A program made the position numbers and the translations under genes. Below the pieces are notes generated by a model. That model did no database searches, was not told the DNA's origin, and worked only from the letters and a program-made list of their open reading frames with translations. A stretch of 39,059 bases of DNA from a virus, in UHGV virus genome UHGV-0140603; one strand, written 5' to 3'. This document shows positions 2,496 to 34,019 of the stretch, piece by piece. Numbering within the stretch: position 1 is the first letter of the stretch; the number at the start of each line of letters is the position of its first letter.

Positions 2496-3121
2496 ACCGC
2501 CAGCACCTTACTGGCAGTGATGTACCGCGCGCGCCGGTCGTCGATGCCGTTCCGGCCACCATTGATAATCAGAGTTACACGTGCAATATCGCCGGTATAC
2601 TTCATGCATCCTTTGCTGGCGAAGAACCACGCCGCGCTACGAGCCGCATATTCGTCCTGCGCCAGCAGTTCAGGGCTCTCCAGCAGGTCAACCTTCAGAC
2701 CGTTTCCGCAATCACGATAGTTATTCAAACCGGTAATCTGGATAAGTCCGCGCCCTCGGTAATTCCAGCCATCACCAGGGGCATTGTTCCCCATGCGTTT
2801 GCTGTATACCAGATTTGCGATCGCGCGCTGGCGCTCAAGTGGCAATGGTGGTTCACCAGCACGGCGCCCCAGTGCATTAGCCTGTCCCTGGGTGAGGCGT
2901 CCAGTCCTGACAAAGCTCGCCAGTCCGGTAACGCTGTAGTTGAAACTCTCCTGCAACCTGGTGAAGCCACCAGACTCATGCCCGACTTGAGCAATAAACA
3001 TTGCCTGATCTTCGGGCTTGCTGATACCAAACTCTTTCATCGCAGAAGTGATATGCGAGAACCAGCGTGCGGCCAGCGCCTCGCTGATACTAGCAGCTCG
3101 CTGGAATTGTTTAATCTCCAT
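2492..3121 (-). CDS. Endolysin, glycoside hydrolase family 19 (chitinase-like)
   Basis: Motifs [22 protein letters not shown] typical of GH19 phage endolysins; ATG at 3121 with gagg RBS; the track ORF extends to 3184. Confidence 0.8.
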
Positions 3122-3419
3122 GTTTAGACCTCGATACTTTGAAAATTTGAACGACGTTACCGCGCGTTTTAATAACCGCAGCAAGCATGACAGCGTTGAT
3201 AATGACCTCAGATAAATCAGCTACCATTGGCGTACGAAACCAGATTGCATAGGCGACGCGAACAGGAATACTTGCCGCAGCAACAATCAGGAAATAAGCA
3301 AGCCACCCACCCCATCTTCGGTGTTGGGATCCGTTACGCCGGAATGTAACAACGCGAACTGCAATGCCAGTACAAATAACTGCATTGGTGATAAGCAAAA
3401 AAAGCTCATGAGTTACCAT
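3111..3419 (-). CDS. Holin or antiholin-like small membrane protein
   Basis: 102 aa, two to three hydrophobic helices, immediately upstream of and overlapping the endolysin start. Confidence 0.5.
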
Positions 3420-3810
3420 CGTCTTTTCTCCCCGGAATTAAGTCGCGTGGATTATCGGAGCGGTGATAGAGCCATATTCCAATACGCACTGCTACAATCG
3501 CTGACACGAATGCGCCAGCAGAGAAGACAACCCCTTTCTCGAAAGAATCCTGCGTAATGGTGGGGATTAGACTGGCTATGCCTATAAGAATTGATGCTGT
3601 TGGTTTGTAAAAGAGAAGACCACAAAGAAAGCTGAGTATCGACAAGAGTACACGACGACGAACAGGATACTCTACAGCAGAGGTAACAAAAATTACCGAA
3701 CCAGAGAGTGAACCCAATGCAACTTCAGGTGGAACACCAGCAAGTACCGATACAAGCGAACACGCACTAAGATATTGATTTAAAGAAAAACTTGTAAATT
3801 GCAATGACAT
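3406..3810 (-). CDS. Holin-like membrane protein, first gene of the lysis cassette
   Basis: Multiple TM segments; track ORF starts with TTG at 3831, ATG at 3810 has a GGTGA SD; overlaps the next lysis gene. Confidence 0.5.
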   Translation of the reverse strand: MSLQFTSFSLNQYLSACSLVSVLAGVPPEVALGSLSGSVIFVTSAVEYPVRRRVLLSILSFLCGLLFYKPTASILIGIASLIPTITQDSFEKGVVFSAGAFVSAIVAVRIGIWLYHRSDNPRDLIPGRKDDGNS

Positions 3811-3990
3811 AAAAGTCACCATTTTTATCAATCAAACACAAATTCAATTCATGAATTCACCGCCTCAATTAAACCATATTTGGTTTGCTCTTGCCTAGTG
3901 TCATTATTATTTATATAGTGACATACCAACTTTCAAATTATAATTTATATATTTTAGGATCAAACCCAATACATTTTAAAAGGTGTAACA

Positions 3991-4830
3991 ATGGAATCTA
4001 ATGCACTAAAAAAAGCACGACTATTTATAAATGACATAAAATATTGTGTTGAAAACTTTAATATCGATTCAACTTTATATACCGCTTTCAAGCCAAGTGA
4101 TATTGGTGTTAAAGGAGATGAAAGCAATACAATATATGTTGCTGACGGTAAGCTTCCGGAAAAACTGATAATTGCTTTTGGAGAAAAGGCAAAAGACAGT
4201 AAAATATTTATTGGAAAAAATGTAAAATGCAGGGGATCGAGAATTGTAATAACTCACGGTGAAAGCCTTTGTTACATCGGAAATAACTCACAACTAAATA
4301 ATGTAACTATGCATATATGGTGCAAATGGGATTTTGTAGTGGTTGGAGAAGGTGTATCAGTTACCTCAACAAGTAATTGGACTACTGGAATAAACCCTGG
4401 CAATCCTTGTAACGGCATTATTATTGGTGATCACTGCCTTATGAGCCAAGAAATATCTATTAGACCTGCAGATGGACACCAAATTATCGAACTCACCACG
4501 CGAAAAGTAGTCAACGCTGCAACATCACCTATTATAATCGAACCATATTGCTGGATCGGACAGCGCACAGCAATACTAAAAAATGTAAGAATTGGTGCAT
4601 GCTCCATCGTTTCACTTGGTGCTGTAGTTACAAAATCATGTAAAAAATTCAGTGCGCTAAGTGGCGTACCAGCCAAAGCAAGATGCATTGAAGGAAAAAT
4701 GTGGCTAAGAAACAATGGGGAAGAAGCCAAGAGAATAATGCTTATGTATGAAAAAAGATTTGCAGGCACAGCAGCACAGCAGCACAGCAGCACAGCAGCA
4801 CAGCAGCACAGCAGCACAGCAGCACAGTGA
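3991..4830 (+). CDS. Hexapeptide-repeat (left-handed beta-helix) acetyltransferase, candidate O-antigen/polysaccharide acetylase
   Basis: Hexapeptide-like repeats (IGDHCLMSQEISI, IGQRTAILKNVRIGACSIVSLGAVV); AT-rich; opposite strand to the late operon; own AT-rich upstream region with SD aaaaggtg. Confidence 0.65.
   Translation: MESNALKKARLFINDIKYCVENFNIDSTLYTAFKPSDIGVKGDESNTIYVADGKLPEKLIIAFGEKAKDSKIFIGKNVKCRGSRIVITHGESLCYIGNNSQLNNVTMHIWCKWDFVVVGEGVSVTSTSNWTTGINPGNPCNGIIIGDHCLMSQEISIRPADGHQIIELTTRKVVNAATSPIIIEPYCWIGQRTAILKNVRIGACSIVSLGAVVTKSCKKFSALSGVPAKARCIEGKMWLRNNGEEAKRIMLMYEKRFAGTAAQQHSSTAAQQHSSTAAQ
4767..4827 (+). repeat. Octanucleotide tandem repeat (cacagcag) ~7.6 copies at the 3' end of the acetyltransferase gene
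   Basis: Seven perfect 8-bp units 4767-4822 plus partial unit; encodes (AAQQHSST)n tail; stop TGA follows at 4828. Confidence 0.9.
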
Positions 4831-4843
4831 TATAATTATAATA

Positions 4844-4864
4844 ATGGCCGTAATGCGCGGCCAT
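4844..4864. terminator. Bidirectional terminator between convergent acetyltransferase and tailspike genes
   Basis: 7-bp stem atggccg/cggccat with 7-nt loop, flanked by A/T runs on both sides. Confidence 0.5.
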
Positions 4865-4885
4865 TACATATTATTTATTATAGCA

Positions 4886-7800
4886 TTAACTTATTAGATC
4901 CGCTATTTTCTTTTCTTGATATGCCATCCTTATTATTTCAAATTCATCCATACGCATCATGTAAATAGATCTTGTCAATACCAAATTTCCATGTTTATCT
5001 TCTTTAATTTCATCTGCACCTTCTATTAATTTAATAATCCCAAATTCATTAACTGGAATTGGACAAGACTCAATATCAATAGGATAAAAATCACCAGATC
5101 CGTTTTCTCTTACCAAAACACTGGTTTCTTCATACGTAATAAGACCATACTTCTTCCAATCAAGACCAGCTTTTGTAATTGCATCCTTAACTTGCTGCGC
5201 TACAACTCCAAAATGATATCTGGCATGTTCACTTCCTTTTCGTAATATTTCATCCTTCATCTTCCACATTTGAAATTTTACACTACCCACGGCTTCAATA
5301 AGTTCAGTCGGTATATCCGAGAATTCATCTTTGTAATTAACATCTGAAACAACAGTGACAGCATTCTTGCTATATATGTTATTCCAGTATGCTGTCGTTG
5401 TACCATTATTAACTGTTCCTATCTGCCCTGTGGGAGCAAAATAAGGATTATCATTAACTGGATTAGCTATCTCGACAAGAACTTGAGTACCGCCAAAGCT
5501 CCCGCCAGGGAACATACGAAACCTGTTTGGTAAGCGATAGTCATTAGAACCATAAGCATTCCAGCCAGCCCCATTTTCTACAGTACCACGACACCTAAAT
5601 TCAACAACTTCTTGTATCTGCGGTGTTACATCATATCCACCACGTATAGACCAGTACTTATTATTGTCAGATTCTCTGCGGGAATCATGAACACGAAAAG
5701 CACCATTACTAGCATACTGAATGGCTTTTTTATATTCTGAAGTATTTTCTGAATACCCCCCCAATATCCAGTTCTCTCCTAATTTAAAGGAAACATCAAA
5801 AGCAGAACTTATAGAAGAAAGTGGTGAGTTATTAACACGAGTTGTCAAGGCGGAATTCAATGGTAGTTCATTAGCAACCCCACGCGATTGTGAAATAAGA
5901 AATATCTGTTTTCCTCGTTTCGAATACACTCCATCGCTGTACTTTTTATCATTCGAGTATTCCCCACCACTAACTTTATTTGTTATCGCCCACATTCTAA
6001 ATCCATCGGGATCATCAGGAGCAATACCAGAAGCAGTAGAAAAAGCGGAATAATTCTTTCCTTTGTAAGTTATAATAGATGCTCCAGAATCCCAATTATC
6101 CATAGTTAGAATAATAAGGTCTCCTTCATACATATCTATACCTTCAGGTTCAAATGAATGGGGGGTCCCATACTTTGGATTATCCATAAGATTTTTGTAT
6201 CCATAAAGAGAACGAGCCCCCTCAAATGAAAATTCAGCAAGAATATTACCAGAATAATCAAACTTCTGAATAATATGCAACATGAACGGATGTGTATATC
6301 CCCTTAATATATAGATGTACTTACCATCACTGGCAACATCTTGAATAACATGAGTATCAGTTCCGCGCTGCGGATGTGGAATCCTGAAATAATACAATGG
6401 TCTTGCGTCCAAACTATTGTCAAGGGATTCTACGTGTATCCTGCTGTAAACAAATACATACCAGGCATCATCATCTGCTGTGCTATCAGTTGCAACAAGA
6501 ACAACATACCTTCCATCTGAAGATACACACGGGGTTGCTGAATTATAATTCTGATAAGGATGACCAGAACCAGAATATCCAAAAAGCTGATAAGTAATCA
6601 CATCAGATTCAGATGTGCTGCTCCCTTTCCAAATTAATTTTGAATAACCTTTTCCTCCATCATTTCCTCGATATGTAGGCTGGGTAACCATTTGGGTATA
6701 AATAAAAAGGTCATCATCAATAACTATCGTAGATATTCCCTGATGGTTATTTAATATTGGTGCAGTGTAAGTAGTATTTTGCACTACTGAACCATCATCA
6801 GAAAACGAGTATTCAACCAGCCTGCGCTTCTCTAAAGCAGCTGCTGTTCCTGTACCCCCCCCTGGACCATTCGCCGTAAATCGTACACCAATATTATTTT
6901 CAGCAGCCCCTATAGTTGTAAAATCAGTTGAACCTATACTTACTATTTCATATTCAATTCCGGTTATGAAGTCACCAGCTGATGTTACTTTAGAGTTGAA
7001 GTTTCCACTACCTTCAGCACTGCCAACAACCGTTTGTAAAATAAATAATTTTTTACCATTATAATTCGCATAAGCACACCCTTGACTTGTAGCCTCACCA
7101 TTTGGAAAAACTTGGGACTCACCAAAACCCATAAATGCTTCCATTAAATGGCGTTGCACCAATGTATTACTGATATTATTACGAAGAGAAAGTAGATGAC
7201 CAGTTTTGGAAAGAATCATCCCTTCCCCTGTCATTTTGCTTACATCTACTTTCAACGTATCAACAAGATATACTCCAGGTGGAACATAAGCATTTTCAGG
7301 AGCCAGAATAAAAGAATTCGTATCATCAGTTATACCATCTCCAACAGCAGCATAATCTTTCACACTTACTGTATCACGCATCTTATCCTGGAACGTTCTG
7401 TATACAGCTCCAGCACCATACTGGATAAACCATCCGAAACCACCGACAACACCAGCAATTGCAGCATCCACATACTTACGCATTGAACGATTATTTACAG
7501 CGTCCTGCTCAAGTGATGGATCTGCAAGGTTAGAAATTTTGTTTTGCTTTGCATCGTAATATTTTGCAAGCAGCGAGGGCTTCATCAATGCACGTCTGAA
7601 CCACCCAAAACATCGCTGGATCAGCATCGTCAGGTAGTCGAATGCATCCTCATGAACTTCGGGGAAAAATTTTCCCTGATTGCGAAGATCAGTCTCCTGC
7701 ACCACATCAAGCACACGCTCTATCGTAATTCGCCAGCCAGCAGCAAGCGGCGACGGAAGAACCACTTCACCGCCACTATAAGTGCCCGCTCCAGTTACCT

Positions 7801-7960
7801 TATAACCGGTATCAAGCACCAATTCTGTTACGTTCCCGTTCAGATCAGACACCTGAACAACCAGGTCGGATTTTTTGAAAATACGGAAGGTATACGGAAA
7901 TGATGTCGTAACTCCGTTACCGGTGTATTCGTTGTGGTCAACTTCGGTTGAGACCGTCAT
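4886..7960 (-). CDS. Tailspike protein with T7 gp17-like N-terminal particle-binding domain
   Basis: N-terminus YTGNGVTTSFPYTFRIF resembles the tail-fibre adaptor domain; 1024 aa; C-terminal two thirds AT-rich. Confidence 0.8.
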   Translation of the reverse strand: MTVSTEVDHNEYTGNGVTTSFPYTFRIFKKSDLVVQVSDLNGNVTELVLDTGYKVTGAGTYSGGEVVLPSPLAAGWRITIERVLDVVQETDLRNQGKFFPEVHEDAFDYLTMLIQRCFGWFRRALMKPSLLAKYYDAKQNKISNLADPSLEQDAVNNRSMRKYVDAAIAGVVGGFGWFIQYGAGAVYRTFQDKMRDTVSVKDYAAVGDGITDDTNSFILAPENAYVPPGVYLVDTLKVDVSKMTGEGMILSKTGHLLSLRNNISNTLVQRHLMEAFMGFGESQVFPNGEATSQGCAYANYNGKKLFILQTVVGSAEGSGNFNSKVTSAGDFITGIEYEIVSIGSTDFTTIGAAENNIGVRFTANGPGGGTGTAAALEKRRLVEYSFSDDGSVVQNTTYTAPILNNHQGISTIVIDDDLFIYTQMVTQPTYRGNDGGKGYSKLIWKGSSTSESDVITYQLFGYSGSGHPYQNYNSATPCVSSDGRYVVLVATDSTADDDAWYVFVYSRIHVESLDNSLDARPLYYFRIPHPQRGTDTHVIQDVASDGKYIYILRGYTHPFMLHIIQKFDYSGNILAEFSFEGARSLYGYKNLMDNPKYGTPHSFEPEGIDMYEGDLIILTMDNWDSGASIITYKGKNYSAFSTASGIAPDDPDGFRMWAITNKVSGGEYSNDKKYSDGVYSKRGKQIFLISQSRGVANELPLNSALTTRVNNSPLSSISSAFDVSFKLGENWILGGYSENTSEYKKAIQYASNGAFRVHDSRRESDNNKYWSIRGGYDVTPQIQEVVEFRCRGTVENGAGWNAYGSNDYRLPNRFRMFPGGSFGGTQVLVEIANPVNDNPYFAPTGQIGTVNNGTTTAYWNNIYSKNAVTVVSDVNYKDEFSDIPTELIEAVGSVKFQMWKMKDEILRKGSEHARYHFGVVAQQVKDAITKAGLDWKKYGLITYEETSVLVRENGSGDFYPIDIESCPIPVNEFGIIKLIEGADEIKEDKHGNLVLTRSIYMMRMDEFEIIRMAYQEKKIADLIS

Positions 7961-25088: not shown

Positions 25089-25131
25089 GAATCACGCCTA
25101 AGGACCGTGATGCCAGAAGTTCCAGGTGCTT

Positions 25132-25173
25132 GGCGGTGATGGTTTCCCTTGAAGGACTATCACCGCCCTTTTT
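25132..25173 (+). terminator. Rho-independent terminator after the tRNA
   Basis: 9-bp stem ggcggtgat/atcaccgcc followed by cttttt. Confidence 0.6.
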
Positions 25174-25251
25174 ACAGCAGGACGCCATTGCGATGACTTC
25201 ATGCTGTAAACCCGTTCAGCCACGGAAGGCAGAACTCATTGCTTCCAGTTC

Positions 25252-25274
25252 GCCCACTTCAGTGGGCTTTTTTC
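25252..25274 (+). terminator. Second rho-independent terminator
   Basis: Stem gcccact/agtgggc followed by tttttt. Confidence 0.6.
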
Positions 25275-25287
25275 TAGTGACTACTGA

Positions 25288-25302
25288 TTACCTTATGGGT
25301 AA
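25288..25302. promoter_or_regulatory. Perfect palindrome TTACC-TTATG-GGTAA overlapping a -10-like taatat, 32 nt upstream of the 310-aa ORF
   Basis: Exact inverted repeat; -10-like hexamer 25300-25305. Confidence 0.5.
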
Positions 25303-25334
25303 TATGCTGCAAACAAATAACACAAGACCGTGAC

Positions 25335-26267
25335 ATGCTTGACTTCATCCGTGACATTTACGCTTCTTTCCGCCAGACATCTCTTGAAAGAGTGAAGAGT
25401 CCATTTCTTGGACCTTTCGTATTTTCGTGGTTGGGGTTTAACTGGCAGATGCTGGCCGTTATCTTTTTTAGCACAAAAAGTATCGAAGAAAGACTTAGTC
25501 TAATAAATAAAAGTTTCGATGTCGGTGATTATATATTTGCCCCTATATGTACTACTGCTTTGATAGTAATAATCCTCCCACGATTTAATAAATTTATCAC
25601 TTGGGTACAGGATAAACCTAACTCTGACACTGTAGAAATGAGTCTGGCATCTAAAATAAAAATCGCAGAATTACAACAGTCCTTAGCTGAAAATGAAGCA
25701 AGAAAAAAACTTGCCGATAAAAAAGAAGAAAGATTTATTGAGGATGGAATATATTCTCTAAAAGAAGAGTTCAAAAAAACAAAAAATGACCTAGAAAAAA
25801 GAAATGACGATGCAAAAATATTGCTAGAAGAAATACGACGTTTAGAAGGCCAACTAGCAAAGGCAGAGGGTCAATTAAATGTAGAACAAGAGTCAAAATC
25901 TCAGATACAAAAAGAGTTGATTATCGAAAGAGATAACAACCGCACATTAGGCGAACAAATAATAAAATCAACATCAGAATCAAATAAATTCAAAGCAGAA
26001 TTATCTTTATCTAAAGAGTCATATGAAAACACATTCAAAGCATACAATGAATTAAAGAAACGGAATGAAATCACTGAAAACTCAATTAGGCACAATCACA
26101 CTAGATACCCATCATTAATAAAACCAGTAAGTGTTAACGGAGCATATACACTAGAATTTAATAAAGGTGTAGAACTATATTTTGACGAAATCAACAAAAC
26201 ATTAACAACCCAAAAAAAGAGAGACTATAAAACCAATAAGGTTAATGCTCGCAATGATGAATTATAG
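25335..26267 (+). CDS. AT-rich hypothetical protein: hydrophobic N-terminal segments plus long coiled-coil; candidate accessory/defence gene
   Basis: 310 aa; opposite strand to flanking terminase and portal; low GC; several AGA codons; no family recognised. Confidence 0.6.
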   Translation: MLDFIRDIYASFRQTSLERVKSPFLGPFVFSWLGFNWQMLAVIFFSTKSIEERLSLINKSFDVGDYIFAPICTTALIVIILPRFNKFITWVQDKPNSDTVEMSLASKIKIAELQQSLAENEARKKLADKKEERFIEDGIYSLKEEFKKTKNDLEKRNDDAKILLEEIRRLEGQLAKAEGQLNVEQESKSQIQKELIIERDNNRTLGEQIIKSTSESNKFKAELSLSKESYENTFKAYNELKKRNEITENSIRHNHTRYPSLIKPVSVNGAYTLEFNKGVELYFDEINKTLTTQKKRDYKTNKVNARNDEL

Positions 26268-26272
26268 TCACT

Positions 26273-27748
26273 TTAAGCAAACGGGTCGTAATCCATGATT
26301 GCCCTGCCCTGCTGGTTCTGCAGCCCAGGAATTCGCAGGCGCTTCGACACAGGGAACGCAAACGTCAGCAGTAGCGCATCGCCTTTACCAGGAGAACGCC
26401 CAAGCCGCTCCTTGATATCTTCCTTCGGTTCGATAACGATTTTACCGTCCACTCGAACTTTGTACTCTGCCGCAGACAGGTCGTCCGCTGTTTCCTGGTC
26501 ATCCAGCATGCCGCCCAGCCTCAGCCATGTCTTGCATGAGTTGAACATCTCCCCACGCTTGTTGAGCATCTGCGGGTCAGTAGACGCGCCACCGAACGGA
26601 ACAAGTTGCCATGTACGACCCCAGCCATCACCGATTGACTTCAGACCAGTTCCGTAACCGAAGTCGATGAACACTGCGTCAGCCTGGTACTGGTCTTCAA
26701 AGTCAGCGATACGCTTCGCCATAATCAGATCGTCAGTGGTCTTGTTGCCAGTCCACAGCACCTTACTGTGCAGCCCCTGCCGCAGGTATATCACAGCGTC
26801 ATCAACGCCGGAGTATGCCGGGTCAACGCCGATTATCACCGGAGCATGTGCAACCTGCGCAGCGGTTACCACCCGTTTCATTGCCTCGTCAGTAAGGCCG
26901 GTAGGGATAAACTGCAATTCAGATGCATCCGGGAATATGCCGCGCACACGGATTTTAACGAAGTCGCTGTCTTCCCCGTAGTCATCAACCCATTTCTGCA
27001 ACTGCTGTTTGTTAGTGCCTTCCACCGTCCGGCTGTCAATCTGCGCAGTTTTCCAGCGGTGTTTATATTTGCGGAAACATTCGCGAAAACGCCCGGTGTT
27101 ACGTGTAGGGTTTCCGAACGCCACCCAGATAATCTCAGTGTCTTCGTCCGTAAGCGCACCCTCAGCAACTTCCCACACCAGATCCGCAATGTTCGACGCT
27201 TCATCGAATACCACGATGATGCGTTTGCGCTCGTTGTGTAGTCCGGCGAATGCCTCAGTGTTGTGCTCAGACCAGGGTATTGCGTCAGCCCGCCACCGCT
27301 TGTCGTGCCCAGGGTCATTGCTGTACATCGCGGTAGCGGTACAGGTAAACCAGTCTTTCGTGATAGCAAGGTTCGACCACTTGATAATTTCCGGCCAGGT
27401 CTTCGTTCGTAGCTGGTTGTCGGTGTTGGCGGTCACCACGACCTTACAATCCTCGCAAGTGGACATGCCCCAGTTGATCAGCATTGAGATGAATGCGGAT
27501 TTACCAATACCGTGACCAGAAGCGCGTGCCAACATAAGCGGCTGATAGCGCGTCTCTGGATTCTGCAGGTGATCACGTATCTCTCGGAACGCATCAGCCT
27601 GCCACTGACGTGGGCCGGTAGCATGTGCCAGTTCAGTCCCCTCTTCCCCCCACGGGAACGCATAGAGGGCATAGCCAAGCGGATCGTGAGTGAACCCTGC
27701 AATATCCTCGATTAACTGCTCTTCAGGAGATAACGCTGTATCTGTCAC
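26273..27748 (-). CDS. Terminase large subunit
   Basis: 491 aa; Walker A-like ASGHGIGKS; start overlaps the small-subunit stop. Confidence 0.8.
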   Translation of the reverse strand: MTDTALSPEEQLIEDIAGFTHDPLGYALYAFPWGEEGTELAHATGPRQWQADAFREIRDHLQNPETRYQPLMLARASGHGIGKSAFISMLINWGMSTCEDCKVVVTANTDNQLRTKTWPEIIKWSNLAITKDWFTCTATAMYSNDPGHDKRWRADAIPWSEHNTEAFAGLHNERKRIIVVFDEASNIADLVWEVAEGALTDEDTEIIWVAFGNPTRNTGRFRECFRKYKHRWKTAQIDSRTVEGTNKQQLQKWVDDYGEDSDFVKIRVRGIFPDASELQFIPTGLTDEAMKRVVTAAQVAHAPVIIGVDPAYSGVDDAVIYLRQGLHSKVLWTGNKTTDDLIMAKRIADFEDQYQADAVFIDFGYGTGLKSIGDGWGRTWQLVPFGGASTDPQMLNKRGEMFNSCKTWLRLGGMLDDQETADDLSAAEYKVRVDGKIVIEPKEDIKERLGRSPGKGDALLLTFAFPVSKRLRIPGLQNQQGRAIMDYDPFA

Positions 27749-32421: not shown

Positions 32422-33222
32422 TTACTTGATAAATCCTGCCGCCTTTCCCCGCCTGTATTCCTCCATCAGCCACTGCGCCGGTGTTATTCCCCCAAGGGTG
32501 GCGGCGTTAGGCATACACCCGAAACTTCGCCCTGGTGGATGGTAAACGTCTCTCCCTGTGTCCGGAGGCGTACTCATGGGCTCTGGCTTTGCCTGTATGC
32601 TGATCACCGGATCGGGTATCTGCTGTCCGGAAGCCACCTTTTTCGCCCAATCATCGAGCAGCCTGCGCGCGTGTTTCTCAACCTCACTCTCGCTAAGCTG
32701 GCGCTGATACATTGCACGACGGGTATCACATACGACCCAGTACATAACCGGATGCCGCCACGGGAATCTTTCGGGACCACCAGGATATAAACTTTTTTCC
32801 TTGCTGTACCGGTGAAACTCCGCCATCACATCGTCAATGGTGACGCCAAGAACCATCTTGCTGTCTTTGCACCACTTGATGAATTGCCCTGGCGACGGCC
32901 AGAACGGAGATTCACTGGCGCGGGCGTGGCGCATACCAGCAGAAACCTGTTCACGGGTTCGGATCCCACCTTCGGCAAACGCAGCAATCCACTGCTGTTT
33001 TGCAGCGACTTCCTGCTCTGGCGTCTTCAGGTTGGTTACCACTGCCGCCGGAAACAGTTGTTTCAGCTGTTTGAAAAGGGCATCAACAAGCCTCTCTGCT
33101 GACATGTTCACCACGTTGTCATTGTTGGTGTACTGATGCTCATAACCTGACATGCGAGAAAGGGCTTCTCCGTCACGGTTTTGTATCGCGGTAAAAACGT
33201 TGTTCACAAGAAATCCTCCCAT
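32422..33222 (-). CDS. Replication protein P-like (helicase loader)
   Basis: EQVSAGMRHARASESPFWPSPGQFIKWCKD aligns with lambda P EQVNAGMRVARRQNRPFLPSPGQFVAWCRE. Confidence 0.75.
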   Translation of the reverse strand: MGGFLVNNVFTAIQNRDGEALSRMSGYEHQYTNNDNVVNMSAERLVDALFKQLKQLFPAAVVTNLKTPEQEVAAKQQWIAAFAEGGIRTREQVSAGMRHARASESPFWPSPGQFIKWCKDSKMVLGVTIDDVMAEFHRYSKEKSLYPGGPERFPWRHPVMYWVVCDTRRAMYQRQLSESEVEKHARRLLDDWAKKVASGQQIPDPVISIQAKPEPMSTPPDTGRDVYHPPGRSFGCMPNAATLGGITPAQWLMEEYRRGKAAGFIK

Positions 33223-34019
33223 GCTTCAGGGCTGTTCCAGTGCGGAACGTTGTTATCAGGTAATGTTGATTGCTTCTGTCTGCTAATCTGCAGCCGCCTT
33301 GCCAGCTTCTGCTCCCACTGTGCCTGATGGTATGCCTTACCCTCAGCCATCCAGTAAATTCTGAACTCTGCAAGTTCCTGTGCCGTTGGCAGACTGTCCA
33401 GGTAGATCCCCTGCAATGAGCTTTTCCGAAGAAAGTCATCTGATGGCTGCCATTGTTCATGCATGACAAATTTTCCTAATTGCCCTGGCCCACCAGGAGG
33501 AACAAAGTTATTCATCACGGCGTTGTTTGCTCCGGGGTCATGAGGCACAGAATCCCCGCTTTTTGTCCTGCTCTCCCTCTCTTGGTTAAATGACTGGTTA
33601 TATGACTGGTTCTGGATCCCGTTTTTGGGATCATTCAACATCCCGTTTTTGGGATCATTCAACATCCCGTTTTTGGGTATATTCCCGTTTTCGGGAACAT
33701 TACCGTTTTCGGGTTCATTACGTCCTTCTAGGTTGCCTTTAATGTTCCCTTTTTTGGTTATATTAAGAGAGAAAACCCGCACTCTTTTCGTCGCTCCCTT
33801 TCTCTCTCCGGTATCTGAAATAAGCCCCATTTTCATGAGCGATATAAGCCCGGCCTGCACGGTTTTTTTATTCAGGCAAGTGTCTTTAACGAGGCGTTCT
33901 ATGCTGGGGTAGCAGAGGTTATATTCATCGGCTCTGTCAGCCATCGAGAGCAGTATGAGCTTTAATGACGAGCTACCTGGATCTGTCTCCCAGGCCCAAT
34001 CTGTTGCATGTCTGCTCAT
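33204..34019 (-). CDS. Replication initiator (O-like) with internal iteron-encoded peptide repeats
   Basis: N-terminal HTH-like domain; central ENGNVPENGNIPKNGMLNDPKNGMLNDPKNG repeats; directly upstream of the P-like gene. Confidence 0.6.
   Translation of the reverse strand: MSRHATDWAWETDPGSSSLKLILLSMADRADEYNLCYPSIERLVKDTCLNKKTVQAGLISLMKMGLISDTGERKGATKRVRVFSLNITKKGNIKGNLEGRNEPENGNVPENGNIPKNGMLNDPKNGMLNDPKNGIQNQSYNQSFNQERESRTKSGDSVPHDPGANNAVMNNFVPPGGPGQLGKFVMHEQWQPSDDFLRKSSLQGIYLDSLPTAQELAEFRIYWMAEGKAYHQAQWEQKLARRLQISRQKQSTLPDNNVPHWNSPEAWEDFL
33614..33721. repeat. Origin-like iterons (about five direct repeats with core cccgttttYggg) followed by an AT-rich tract
   Basis: Repeats at ~33614, 33638, 33661, 33683, 33702; AT-rich 33730-33775; inside the initiator gene as in lambda ori. 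Confidence 0.6.

What the first reader, a model, noticed from the sequence alone, without database searches (positions are those of the whole stretch)
3832..7100. AT-rich receptor module: mosaic tailspike distal half plus divergently transcribed acetyltransferase
The tailspike 5' third has backbone-like composition and a conserved particle-binding N-terminus, while the distal two thirds (~4886-7100) and the adjacent acetyltransferase are markedly AT-rich. This is the signature of a horizontally exchanged receptor-binding domain travelling with a surface-polysaccharide modification gene, so the prophage probably alters host serotype and excludes related phages. The acetyltransferase lies antisense between tailspike and lysis genes, so the lysis cassette must have its own promoter in 3832-3990.
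Basis: partly seen in the sequence, partly recalled or inferred. Interest (0 to 1): 0.55.

Follow-up and report, generated by a model that had tools for sequence, protein, structure and literature searches.

The report
Prophage capsule-acetylating receptor module
An epsilon15-like E. coli prophage carries a swappable cassette, made of a capsule-binding tailspike head and a NeuO-like acetyltransferase ending in a hypervariable 8-base repeat, that occurs only in strains with the K18/K22 ribitol-phosphate capsule, so it is a strong candidate for the so far unidentified gene that turns K22 into K18.

Summary
The compositional observation holds. An AT-rich cassette (window 3786-7333, GC about 0.38 against a 0.50 backbone) holds the distal 80% of the tailspike and an antisense acetyltransferase. 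The break lies at tailspike codon ~209 (nt ~7334), not ~7100. The acetyltransferase is convergent with the tailspike and divergent only from the lysis genes.

The layout of holin, acetyltransferase and tailspike matches the same slot in phage phiV10, but the enzyme is unrelated to phiV10 Oac. It is a cytoplasmic left-handed beta-helix O-acetyltransferase. Its nearest solved relatives are the capsule enzymes NeuO and OatWY, and the catalytic His and Trp are conserved.

In 5,426 complete E. coli genomes the gene is in 11, all among the 19 that carry the K18_K22 capsule locus. These hosts have different O antigens (O15, O7). Homologues lie inside K2-like and ribitol-phosphate capsule operons. A 2026 paper states that the K18-versus-K22 acetyltransferase is unidentified and probably outside the locus.

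The tailspike head is a five-bladed propeller most like staphylococcal phage teichoic-acid binders.

The gene also ends in a perfect GCACAGCA array, 7.75 copies here and about 3 to 64 elsewhere, which changes the C-terminal tail and stop frame. Activity, superinfection exclusion and a lysis promoter remain untested.

The parts
3406..3810 (-). First gene of the lysis cassette (holin-like membrane protein). Its first ~9 codons (3786-3810) already belong to the variable cassette.
   Evidence: Pfam Phage_holin_8 E 2.5e-11. Annotated as a 405-nt CDS in near-identical genomes. Homology to acetyltransferase-less phages ends at 3783-3785.
3786..7333 (.). Exchangeable receptor cassette. It comprises the intergenic control region, the acetyltransferase with its repeat, a terminator hairpin, and the tailspike receptor-binding and chaperone parts.
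   Evidence: blastn breakpoints against L008-L010, L003 and L007. GC 0.377 against 0.499 for the backbone.
3811..3990 (.). 180-nt intergenic region of 27% GC between the divergent holin and acetyltransferase genes. It holds candidate promoters at 3891-3919 on + (TTGCCT-17-TATAGT) and at 3980-3951 on -, and a Shine-Dalgarno AAGGTG 6 nt before the ATG at 3991.
   Evidence: The promoter count is not above chance, so the promoters are only candidates.
3991..4830 (+). NeuO-like left-handed beta-helix O-acetyltransferase, 279 aa as assembled. The catalytic core is aa 1-258, with His163 and Trp188.
   Evidence: phmmer against NeuO 3JQY gives E 1.9e-18, and His147/Trp171 of NeuO align to His163/Trp188. 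Both residues are invariant in 43 homologues. The AF2 model has pLDDT 91.6, and its best Foldseek matches are NeuO and OatWY.
4766..4827 (+). Perfect octanucleotide tandem repeat (GCACAGCA) x 7.75. It encodes (TAAQQHSS)n and sets the exit frame and stop codon of the acetyltransferase.
   Evidence: TRF finds 100% matches. Copy number is ~2.9 (degenerate), 16.75, 22.9, 31.8, 42.75, 43.75, 50.75, 52.75 and 63.9 in otherwise near-identical loci. The three exit frames are worked out.
4842..4866 (.). GC-rich hairpin between the convergent acetyltransferase and tailspike genes. It is a likely bidirectional terminator.
   Evidence: Terminator scan and direct reading of the sequence.
7334..7960 (-). 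Tailspike N-terminal particle-binding domain (aa 1-209), conserved across Uetakevirus.
   Evidence: 92-99% nt identity to relatives. 206/209 aa are identical to the otherwise unrelated EC0026B tailspike. Many PHROG tail families match only aa 1-165/225. It matches Dpo31/36 aa 1-216 with E 2.9e-32.
5861..7363 (-). Tailspike receptor-binding domain (aa ~200-700): a five-bladed beta-propeller.
5426..5803 (-). Tailspike all-beta distal domain (aa ~720-845), function unassigned.
   Evidence: AF2 secondary structure with pLDDT about 70-85.
4889..5347 (-). Peptidase S74 intramolecular chaperone (aa 872-1024). The predicted autocleavage dyad is Ser872/Lys877.
   Evidence: Pfam PF13884 scores 35.8 bits, above the 22-bit cut-off. 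PDB matches are 6eu4, 3gud and 3gw6. S872 is nearly invariant and K877 invariant in alignment A1.

Best explanation
The region is the receptor module of an epsilon15-like (Uetakevirus) prophage inserted next to yfgI. It is specialised for the E. coli K18_K22 group 2 capsule, a ribosyl-ribitol-phosphate, teichoic-acid-like polymer.

The tailspike keeps the genus-wide N-terminal adaptor (aa 1-209). Beyond it lies an imported head made of three parts:
- a five-bladed beta-propeller that recognises, and possibly cleaves, the capsule;
- a small beta domain;
- an S74 chaperone that trimerises the spike and cuts itself off at Ser872.

The gene between the tailspike and the lysis cassette encodes a cytoplasmic, probably trimeric, acetyl-CoA-dependent left-handed beta-helix O-acetyltransferase of the NeuO/OatWY kind. 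It is probably expressed in the lysogen from its own promoter (inferred). It would then O-acetylate the capsule polymer before export, converting the K22 backbone into its acetylated form, K18. This changes antigenicity and the phage receptor. Any protection against related phages is by analogy only.

The cassette is exchanged by recombination between the conserved holin 5' region and the tailspike adaptor.

The 3' GCACAGCA array slips at high frequency. All three frames stay open across it, so it does not truncate the enzyme. It changes the length of a disordered (TAAQQHSS)n tail and selects one of three endings: Q-stop, TVI-stop, or a 22-residue hydrophobic extension. The most likely effect is to tune or toggle activity rather than act as a clean on/off switch. 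This last step is inference.
For: Identity of the phage and the slot.

The enzyme:
- Best sequence match among solved structures is NeuO (E 1.9e-18), then OatWY.
- NeuO His147/Trp171 align to His163/Trp188, and both are invariant in 43 family members.
- The confident LbH model has NeuO and OatWY as its best structural matches.

The substrate:
- Host MLI121 carries kps with a three-gene region 2: a 378-aa protein, a bifunctional cytidylyltransferase/SDR, and a 1107-aa TagF-like polymerase.
- Its protein identities to the ST131 allele are 97.09, 98.91 and 81.93%. The published K18_K22-versus-K100 values are 97.098, 98.908 and 82.13%.
- ST131 strains were typed as K100, and an O23:H15 strain carries the MLI121 allele.
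- The acetyltransferase is in 11 of 5,426 complete genomes, all within the 19 that carry this allele. It is in none of the 113 genomes with the K100-type allele. Hypergeometric P is 2.5e-29, or 8.5e-17 after collapsing clones, without phylogenetic correction.
- Both tailspike heads linked to it are likewise restricted to these genomes.
- The hosts differ in O antigen: O15 and O7:H4.
- A 52%-identical homologue sits inside kps region 2 of a K2-like locus.
- A 71%-identical homologue directly follows a CDP-ribitol synthase (73% identical to the K18_K22 one) and a homologue of the 378-aa protein.
- The gene's GC (0.365) resembles kps region 2 (0.316), not the phage.
- PMC13171606 states that K18 is acetylated K22, that the loci are identical, and that the acetyltransferase is probably outside the locus.

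The repeat. MLI114 and MLI121 are 14 cgMLST alleles apart yet differ by one repeat unit and therefore by exit frame. The tail is disordered in the model.
Against: - No biochemical or serological data exist. The kps locus of the window's own host is outside the window.
- The K18a, K18ab and K22 reference genomes could not be searched. It is therefore unknown whether the K18 strains carry this gene and the K22 strain lacks it.
- The co-occurrence rests on about six independent lineages, at least two of them ST484. It could partly reflect the tailspike's host range plus vertical inheritance, not the enzyme's substrate.
- Assigning the allele to K18_K22 rather than K100 rests on ST131 being K100 and on one O23:H15 strain.
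- Pfam Hexapep scores below its gathering cut-off (22.1 against 27).
- The repeat never truncates the catalytic core, so a functional effect is unproven.
- The 62-bp array in the window is the length a k=55-59 de Bruijn collapse would produce. Short-read contigs break or gap at this array.
- Nothing shows that the propeller is enzymatic.
Confidence: 0.65

Rival explanations
1. The acetyltransferase does modify the K18_K22-type capsule, but it is not the classical K18 determinant. It might acetylate another position, or the reference K18 strains might use a different gene.
For: The reference genomes were not available for search. The serological split K18a/K18ab is itself unexplained. Only 7 of about 15 strains with the locus carry the gene.
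Against: No other acetyltransferase candidate is known. PMC13171606 expects exactly this kind of off-locus gene. A presence/absence split within an identical locus is what a K18/K22 pair predicts.
Confidence: 0.17
2. The enzyme modifies the O antigen or another non-capsular surface glycan, as Oac does in phiV10 and Sf6.
For: The gene slot is the same as oac in phiV10. Some LbH acetyltransferases, such as WbbJ and WcaF, act on Und-PP-linked units.
Against: The hosts carry different O antigens, O15 and O7. About 98 other O15 genomes lack the gene. It is unrelated to phiV10 Oac. The nearest homologues are inside capsule loci. The best structural relatives are the capsule enzymes NeuO and OatWY.
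Confidence: 0.06
3. The repeat is a neutral, slippage-prone hitch-hiker, or partly an assembly artefact, with no regulatory role. The enzyme is simply constitutive.
For: All three frames keep the full catalytic core. The tail is disordered. Homologues outside E. coli lack the array. A degenerate, presumably stable ~3-unit allele exists in EC0026B. Short-read assemblies collapse or break at the array.
Against: Arrays of up to 64 perfect copies are present in long-read complete genomes, and every strain differs. Near-clonal isolates differ by one unit. In the precedent, NeuO, repeat number controls expression; that it also affects activity is from my own knowledge, not. One frame adds a 22-residue hydrophobic tail that is unlikely to be neutral.
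Confidence: 0.35
4. The AT-rich gene is a moron with a non-surface substrate, for example a small-molecule or antibiotic acetyltransferase such as the Vat, CatB or maltose acetyltransferases. Its link to the capsule type would be incidental.
For: Weak partial matches to maltose/galactoside/Vat/CatB families over aa 143-230.
Against: Those matches cover only the generic C-terminal coils and score far below their cut-offs. Full-length matches are to capsule-locus enzymes (52-71% identity) and to NeuO. Restriction to one K type is absolute in 5,426 genomes.
Confidence: 0.03

Closest known systems
NeuO, the polysialic-acid O-acetyltransferase of prophage CUS-3 in E. coli K1
   Same: Both are prophage-borne, cytoplasmic LbH O-acetyltransferases acting on a group 2 capsule. 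NeuO is the best sequence and structure match, with the catalytic His and Trp conserved. Both coding sequences contain a perfect short tandem repeat whose unit is not a multiple of 3 and whose copy number varies widely (2-93 in neuO; about 3-64 here). That neuO lies beside a capsule-specific tailspike is from my own knowledge.
   Different: Only about 22% identical. The phage backbone differs: Uetakevirus here, whereas CUS-3 is P22-like (from my own knowledge). The capsule differs: ribitol phosphate rather than polysialic acid. The repeat is an octamer at the 3' end, not a heptamer two nucleotides after the start codon. It therefore cannot switch translation of the core on and off, and only alters the C-terminal tail.
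phiV10 (Uetakevirus) oac and tail fiber module
   Same: Same genus and an identical slot and orientation: membrane protein/holin (-), acetyltransferase (+), tailspike (-). The tailspike N-terminus is conserved and the distal part is divergent. Its oac is annotated as acetylating the host O antigen and giving superinfection immunity.
   Different: phiV10 Oac is a 338-aa protein with no detectable similarity. That it is an integral-membrane acyltransferase is from my own knowledge. It acts on O157 LPS and has no tandem repeat.
In-locus acetyltransferases of teichoic-acid-like kps loci (K2/K2ab-type region 2) and of a ribitol-phosphate operon in a metagenome contig
   Same: Full-length homologues, 52% identical (E 5e-99) and 71% identical. 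Both sit beside TagF-like polymerases, and the 71% homologue also follows a CDP-ribitol synthase. GC is similarly low.
   Different: They are chromosomal and lie inside the capsule locus. They have no repeat array and are not linked to a tailspike.
Receptor-binding proteins of S. aureus phages phi11, 80alpha and P68
   Different: Sequence identity is 10-15%. Here the propeller is mounted on an epsilon15-type adaptor and followed by an S74 chaperone. The ligand and any enzymatic activity are untested.

Membership tests
NeuO/OatWY-type LbH capsule O-acetyltransferases | Left-handed beta-helix (hexapeptide) fold with a C-terminal helix | tested here: met
   The AF2 model has pLDDT 91.6, with beta coils followed by helix 244-258. 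Foldseek ranks NeuO and OatWY first. phmmer against 3JQY gives E 1.9e-18. Pfam Hexapep alone is below its cut-off, 22.1 against 27.
NeuO/OatWY-type LbH capsule O-acetyltransferases | Catalytic His and Trp (NeuO His147/Trp171 in 3JQY numbering) | tested here: met
   They align to His163 and Trp188. Both are invariant in 43 homologues.
NeuO/OatWY-type LbH capsule O-acetyltransferases | Acetyl-CoA-dependent O-acetylation of a capsular polymer; homotrimer | not testable with these tools
   Needs an enzyme assay and a check of oligomeric state. It is inferred from homology and from the restriction to K18_K22 hosts.
neuO-type contingency locus (repeat-mediated phase variation) | Perfect intragenic tandem repeat, unit not divisible by 3, with copy number varying between close relatives | tested here: met
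   An 8-nt unit at 100% identity. About 3-64 copies occur across near-identical loci. MLI114 and MLI121 differ by one unit.
neuO-type contingency locus (repeat-mediated phase variation) | Frame changes switch translation of the active enzyme on and off | tested here: not met
   The array lies after the catalytic core. All three frames are open across it and stop within 1-22 codons (up to 62 in the PAR allele). Any switch would have to act through the tail.
Uetakevirus (epsilon15-like) receptor module | Conserved tailspike N-terminal adaptor followed by a variable head, located upstream of the holin-holin-endolysin-Rz cassette | tested here: met
   88-93% nt identity to ZX5, phiv142-3 and HEMP4 on both flanks. 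Lysis genes were identified by Pfam. phiV10 has the same layout.
Peptidase S74 intramolecular chaperone | PF13884 domain with the Ser-Lys autocleavage dyad | tested here: met
   35.8 bits, above the 22-bit cut-off. S872 is nearly invariant and K877 invariant. Cleavage itself was not tested.
Capsule depolymerase tailspikes (e.g. endosialidases) | Demonstrable catalytic site or degradation of the polymer | tested here: inconclusive
   Endosialidases match only weakly (Foldseek E 3e-8, TM 0.16-0.23). The best matches are non-enzymatic RBPs and generic five-bladed propellers, including GH43. Conserved charged residues exist, but no known active site could be mapped.
K18 capsule determinant (acetylated K22) | Present in K18 and absent or inactive in K22 reference strains; confers O-acetylation of the ribosyl-ribitol-phosphate polymer | not testable with these tools
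   The reference genomes GCA_977946865, GCA_977946875 and GCA_977947955 are not in the searchable collections. Indirect support: the gene is restricted to genomes with the K18_K22 locus and is present in only some of them.

The most novel reading that the evidence does not exclude
This prophage gene is the missing determinant that distinguishes E. coli capsule serotype K18 from K22. On this reading its 3' octanucleotide array makes that distinction, and perhaps K18a versus K18ab, a heritable but reversible 'form variation'. It would be the second simple-sequence contingency locus in E. coli after neuO. It would also work by a different principle: remodelling of a C-terminal tail rather than translational on/off switching.
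Probability: 0.25. Interest if true: 0.75.

Novelty: new variant of a known kind. Interest (0 to 1): 0.62.

Why it matters
A 2026 genotype-serotype map of E. coli capsules could not separate K18 from K22. It stated that the responsible acetyltransferase probably lies outside the kps locus (PMC13171606). This module gives a specific candidate that can be tested directly. Adding the gene to in-silico K-typing would be immediate.

If confirmed, it would extend the NeuO paradigm of a phage-borne, repeat-containing capsule acetyltransferase. The extension would be to a second capsule chemistry, a second phage lineage and a different repeat architecture.

The tailspike also suggests that E. coli phages recognise a teichoic-acid-like capsule with the propeller fold that staphylococcal phages use for wall teichoic acid. 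That is relevant to engineering phage host range.

The general principle is already well known: a mosaic tailspike paired with a receptor-modifying gene.

Tried and rejected
- **Locating kps and the O-antigen locus.** I walked through the annotated MLI121 chromosome. Three 50-kb fetches landed in the pheV resistance/T6SS/pic island before kps was found. One fetch landed in a Mu-like prophage before the O15 cluster.
- **Reaching the K18/K22 reference strains through exact-protein look-ups.** The window tailspike and P0001 returned only metagenome, draft and one unrelated complete genome.
- **Per-genome K types in the supplements of PMC13171606.** The accessions were not listed.
- **O15 search.** This could not by itself exclude O15 in the other hosts, because 40 rows were not listed. 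It was resolved through published serotypes.
- **Homology between the two tailspike heads, or between the type-2 head and P0021.** This was rejected: they share only the adaptor and the S74 part.
- **phiV10 Oac as a homologue.** Rejected.
- **Other family searches.** PADLOC, Pfam and NCBIfam gave nothing further for the tailspike body or for the second AT-rich ORF.
- **Promoter scan.** Not informative, because counts were at chance level.
- **Literature search.** Searches for an octanucleotide repeat or a K18 acetyltransferase on a prophage found nothing.
Full report
**What the window is.** Bases 722-1795 are the E. coli genes yfgH and yfgI. From about 1900 onward the window is an epsilon15-like (Uetakevirus) prophage. 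Evidence:
- The lysis cassette on the minus strand consists of the Rz-like DUF2514 gene (2013-2495), a GH19 endolysin, and two holin-type genes (3111-3419 and 3406-3810).
- The capsid, portal and virion genes are of the epsilon15 type.
- The flanks of the finding are 88-93% identical to phages vB_EcoP_ZX5, phiv142-3 and HEMP4.
- Five complete E. coli genomes carry the same 4.7-kb region at 99.6-99.8% identity, next to yfgI.

**Checking the observation.** The compositional mosaic is real and large.

| Segment | GC | GC3 |
|---|---|---|
| Acetyltransferase core | 0.365 | 0.26 |
| Tailspike aa 211-870 | 0.384 | 0.25 |
| Tailspike aa 871-1024 | 0.33 | 0.22 |
| Tailspike aa 1-210 | 0.463 | 0.42 |

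One-kb windows of the backbone average 0.499 (sd 0.032), against 0.377 (sd 0.007) for the module. Only one other prophage segment is comparably AT-rich (25101-26500).

The composition break coincides with a homology break. Identity to four independent relatives stops at window 7320-7334, which is tailspike codon ~209. On the other side it stops at 3783-3785, about 25 nt inside the first holin gene. The cassette is therefore 3786-7333.

The conserved part of the tailspike is its first fifth, not its first third. The acetyltransferase (plus strand, 3991-4830) is convergent with the tailspike (minus strand, 7960-4886), with a GC-rich hairpin at 4842-4866 between them. It is divergent only from the lysis genes.

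**The architecture is known in this genus.** Phage phiV10 has the same order and orientation: membrane protein/holin (-), oac (+), tail fiber (-). Its record annotates oac as acetylating the host O antigen and functioning in superinfection immunity. The enzyme here, however, has no similarity to phiV10 Oac.

**The acetyltransferase.**
- Its best match among all solved structures is NeuO, the prophage-encoded polysialic-acid O-acetyltransferase of E. coli K1 (3JQY, E 1.9e-18). OatWY of Neisseria follows.
- The residues reported as catalytically important in NeuO, His147 and Trp171 in crystal numbering (PMC3046976), align with His163 and Trp188. Both are invariant in an alignment of 43 family members.
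- An AlphaFold model (pLDDT 91.6) shows a left-handed beta-helix followed by a C-terminal helix (aa 244-258), then a disordered tail.
- NeuO and OatWY are the best structural matches.

**The substrate.** The family is small, about 46 clusters among 5.8 billion proteins. Its closest E. coli homologue is 52% identical over the full length (E 5e-99). It lies inside kps region 2 of a teichoic-acid-like locus, next to a galactosyltransferase-related gene and a CDP-glycerol glycerophosphotransferase-family gene.

The closest homologue overall is 71% identical and lies on a metagenome contig. It directly follows three genes:
- a TagF-like transferase;
- a bifunctional cytidylyltransferase/SDR that is 73% identical to the one in the K18_K22 locus;
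- a protein 49.5% identical to the 378-aa K18_K22 region-2 protein.

I then located the capsule locus of host MLI121. It has kpsFEDUCS, a three-gene region 2 (378-aa protein, CDP-ribitol-synthase-like enzyme, 1107-aa TagF-like polymerase) and kpsTM. Comparing these three proteins with the related allele in ST131 strain Ecol_448 gives 97.09, 98.91 and 81.93% identity. The supplement of the 2026 capsule-typing paper lists almost exactly these values for K18_K22 against K100: 97.098, 98.908 and 82.13%. ST131 strains were typed biochemically as K100 (PMC4192283). An O23:H15 strain, E300010, carries the MLI121 allele, and from my own memory O23:H15 is the serotype of the K18 and K22 reference strains. 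The MLI121 allele is therefore K18_K22.

**Association across 5,426 complete E. coli genomes.**
- The K18_K22 region 2 (at least 99% identity) is in 19 genomes. The K100-type allele is in 113.
- The phage acetyltransferase is in 11 genomes, representing 7 strains. All 11 are among the 19, and none is in a genome with the K100-type allele or elsewhere.
- The window-type tailspike head is in 5 genomes. An unrelated head joined to the same acetyltransferase (EC0026B and PAR) is in 6. All 11 are again among the 19.
- The naive hypergeometric probability is 2.5e-29, or 8.5e-17 after collapsing obvious clones. This is not corrected for phylogeny.

The hosts do not share an O antigen. MLI121 is O15 and E100341 is O7:H4 ST484. 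About 98 other O15 genomes lack the gene. This argues against the O antigen as substrate.

The gene's GC (0.365) is close to that of kps region 2 (0.316) and of the K2-like in-locus homologue (0.322). That is consistent with capture from a capsule locus.

PMC13171606 states that K18 is an acetylated version of K22, that their kps loci are 100% identical, and that the acetyltransferase is probably located outside the locus and is unknown. I found no paper that identifies it. The presence/absence split of this gene among genomes with one identical locus is what a K18/K22 pair predicts.

**The tailspike.**
- The N-terminal 209 residues are the genus-wide adaptor. They are 99% identical even to the otherwise unrelated EC0026B spike. 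Many PHROG families match only this part.
- The head is rare, with 25 hits among 5.8 billion proteins.
- A model built on 22 homologues is confident for aa ~200-700.
- From established knowledge, the staphylococcal proteins bind glycosylated ribitol-phosphate wall teichoic acid. This fits a ribitol-phosphate capsule as ligand, but it is a resemblance, not a test.
- Whether the propeller also cleaves the polymer is unknown.
- The C-terminus is a Peptidase_S74 intramolecular chaperone scoring above its Pfam cut-off, with the Ser872/Lys877 dyad conserved.

The acetyltransferase ORF ends in a perfect tandem array of the octamer GCACAGCA at 4766-4827: 7.75 copies at 100% identity.

Copy numbers in otherwise 99.4-99.8% identical loci:

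| Source | Copies |
|---|---|
| MLI121 | 42.75 |
| MLI114 | 43.75 |
| E100341 | 52.75 |
| SW070919 | 50.75 |
| AST205 | 16.75 |
| PAR | 22.9 |
| OZ038760 | 63.9 |
| IMG/VR contig | 31.8 |
| EC0026B | ~2.9, interrupted |

The protein cluster has 125 members; the near-full-length ones listed run from 264 to 365 aa, and complete genomes reach 430 aa. The tailspike stays at 1024 aa in most listed members, and the shorter ones are disrupted or partial. MLI114 and MLI121 are only 14 cgMLST alleles apart (PMC10198576), yet they differ by one unit and therefore by reading frame.

The octamer has no stop codon in any frame, so three units encode TAAQQHSS whatever the phase. The array length chooses among three endings...Q-stop...TVI-stop, or a 22-residue hydrophobic extension, DIIIIMAVMRGHYILFIIALTY. 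A second downstream allele (PAR type) instead gives a 62-residue read-through, a similar hydrophobic tail, or STAK-stop.

This resembles neuO, which has a heptamer in 2-93 copies. The difference is that the neuO repeat sits just after the start codon and gates translation, whereas here the catalytic core is always made. An effect on activity, stability or localisation is plausible but unproven.

One caveat applies to the window itself. Short-read contigs break, gap or collapse at this array. A 62-bp array is what a k=55-59 de Bruijn graph would output in this phase. The copy number in the window may therefore be an artefact.

**Exchange of sub-modules.** EC0026B and PAR share the acetyltransferase, the hairpin and the last ~11 tailspike codons with the window (up to 4918). 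Between 4919 and 7333 they have an unrelated head. E100341 and EC0026B are both ST484 and carry the prophage at the same site, but with different heads. The acetyltransferase and the head are thus separate exchange units within one cassette.

**The lysis promoter claim.** The 180-nt intergenic region is 27% GC. It contains -35/-10-like hexamers on both strands and a good ribosome-binding site for the acetyltransferase. The number of promoter-like sites in 3300-5100 equals the shuffled expectation, 8 against 7.4. Relatives without the acetyltransferase also have a 220-300-nt, cassette-specific spacer before the holin gene. A dedicated lysis promoter is possible but not demonstrated. Antiterminated read-through of the late transcript is not excluded.

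**Verdict.** The module is a new variant of a known kind. It is the capsule counterpart of the phiV10 oac/tailspike slot, using a NeuO-family enzyme with a new 3' octanucleotide array. It is the best available candidate for the unidentified K18-versus-K22 determinant. Enzymatic activity, serological effect, phage exclusion and the function of the repeat are all inferred, not shown.

Noticed in passing
window 25101-26500 (ORF 25335-26267, + strand): A second AT-rich island (minimum GC 0.31). It holds a 310-aa ORF antisense to the flanking structural and packaging genes, between the portal and the large ORF at 26273-27748. It has no Pfam or PADLOC match and hits only PHROG families of unknown function (phrog_13369, E 1.6e-80). 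It looks like another moron.
   Followed up: partly
window 33583-33721: A cluster of short tandem repeats (12 nt x 2.4, 24 nt x 2.6 at 100% identity, 18 nt x 3.1). It lies inside the replication-initiator-like gene (33204-34019, HTH_36 + DnaT domain), next to a lambda P-like gene. These are probably origin iterons.
   Followed up: no
L005 (E. coli SW070919), equivalent to window 7367-7371: An IS3-family element interrupts the tailspike at about codon 197, right at the adaptor/head junction. The acetyltransferase is kept, in the hydrophobic-tail frame. The prophage is defective, but the capsule-modifying gene is retained.
   Followed up: partly
L006 (AST205) and L032 (IMG/VR contig): In these copies the tailspike is joined directly to replication genes (lambda P-like, DnaT-like). 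Most of the virion genes are deleted, while the acetyltransferase and tailspike pair is kept.
   Followed up: no
L003:2366-2395 (EC0026B): The array has decayed to about 2.9 units with a 1-nt deletion (GCACAGCA-GACAGCA-GCACAGC). The fixed tail is ...GTADSSTAK-stop. This 267-aa form is the most frequent cluster member, found on 71 contigs. It is possibly a 'locked' allele.
   Followed up: partly
P0021 (E. coli, 910 aa, 264 member sequences): A P22-type tailspike (Head_binding domain) carries a distant homologue (26% identity) of the same propeller head plus S74. The head family is therefore shared between P22-like and epsilon15-like E. coli prophages. Its capsule target is unknown.
   Followed up: no
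L025:8465-10954 (E. coli THO-008, O15): Inside another kps region 2, an 829-aa 'acyltransferase' contains a segment 72.6% identical at the DNA level to the phage gene. It appears to be a fused, multi-domain relative.
   Followed up: no
L011-L014 (MLI121 chromosome 1.96-2.13 Mb): The K18_K22 kps locus of this host sits at the end of a ~150-kb pheV-side island. The island carries ISEcp1, TEM-1, tet(A), sul1/dfrA5 and mer genes, pic, and two T6SS clusters (aaiC, Tle1-EAEC). The host is thus an enteroaggregative-type strain with chromosomal resistance.
   Followed up: no
L019-L022, L016: Short-read assemblies end contigs 56-151 nt past the tailspike stop, or insert an N-gap, exactly at the octamer array. 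Gene calls and copy numbers for this acetyltransferase in draft genomes are therefore unreliable.
   Followed up: yes
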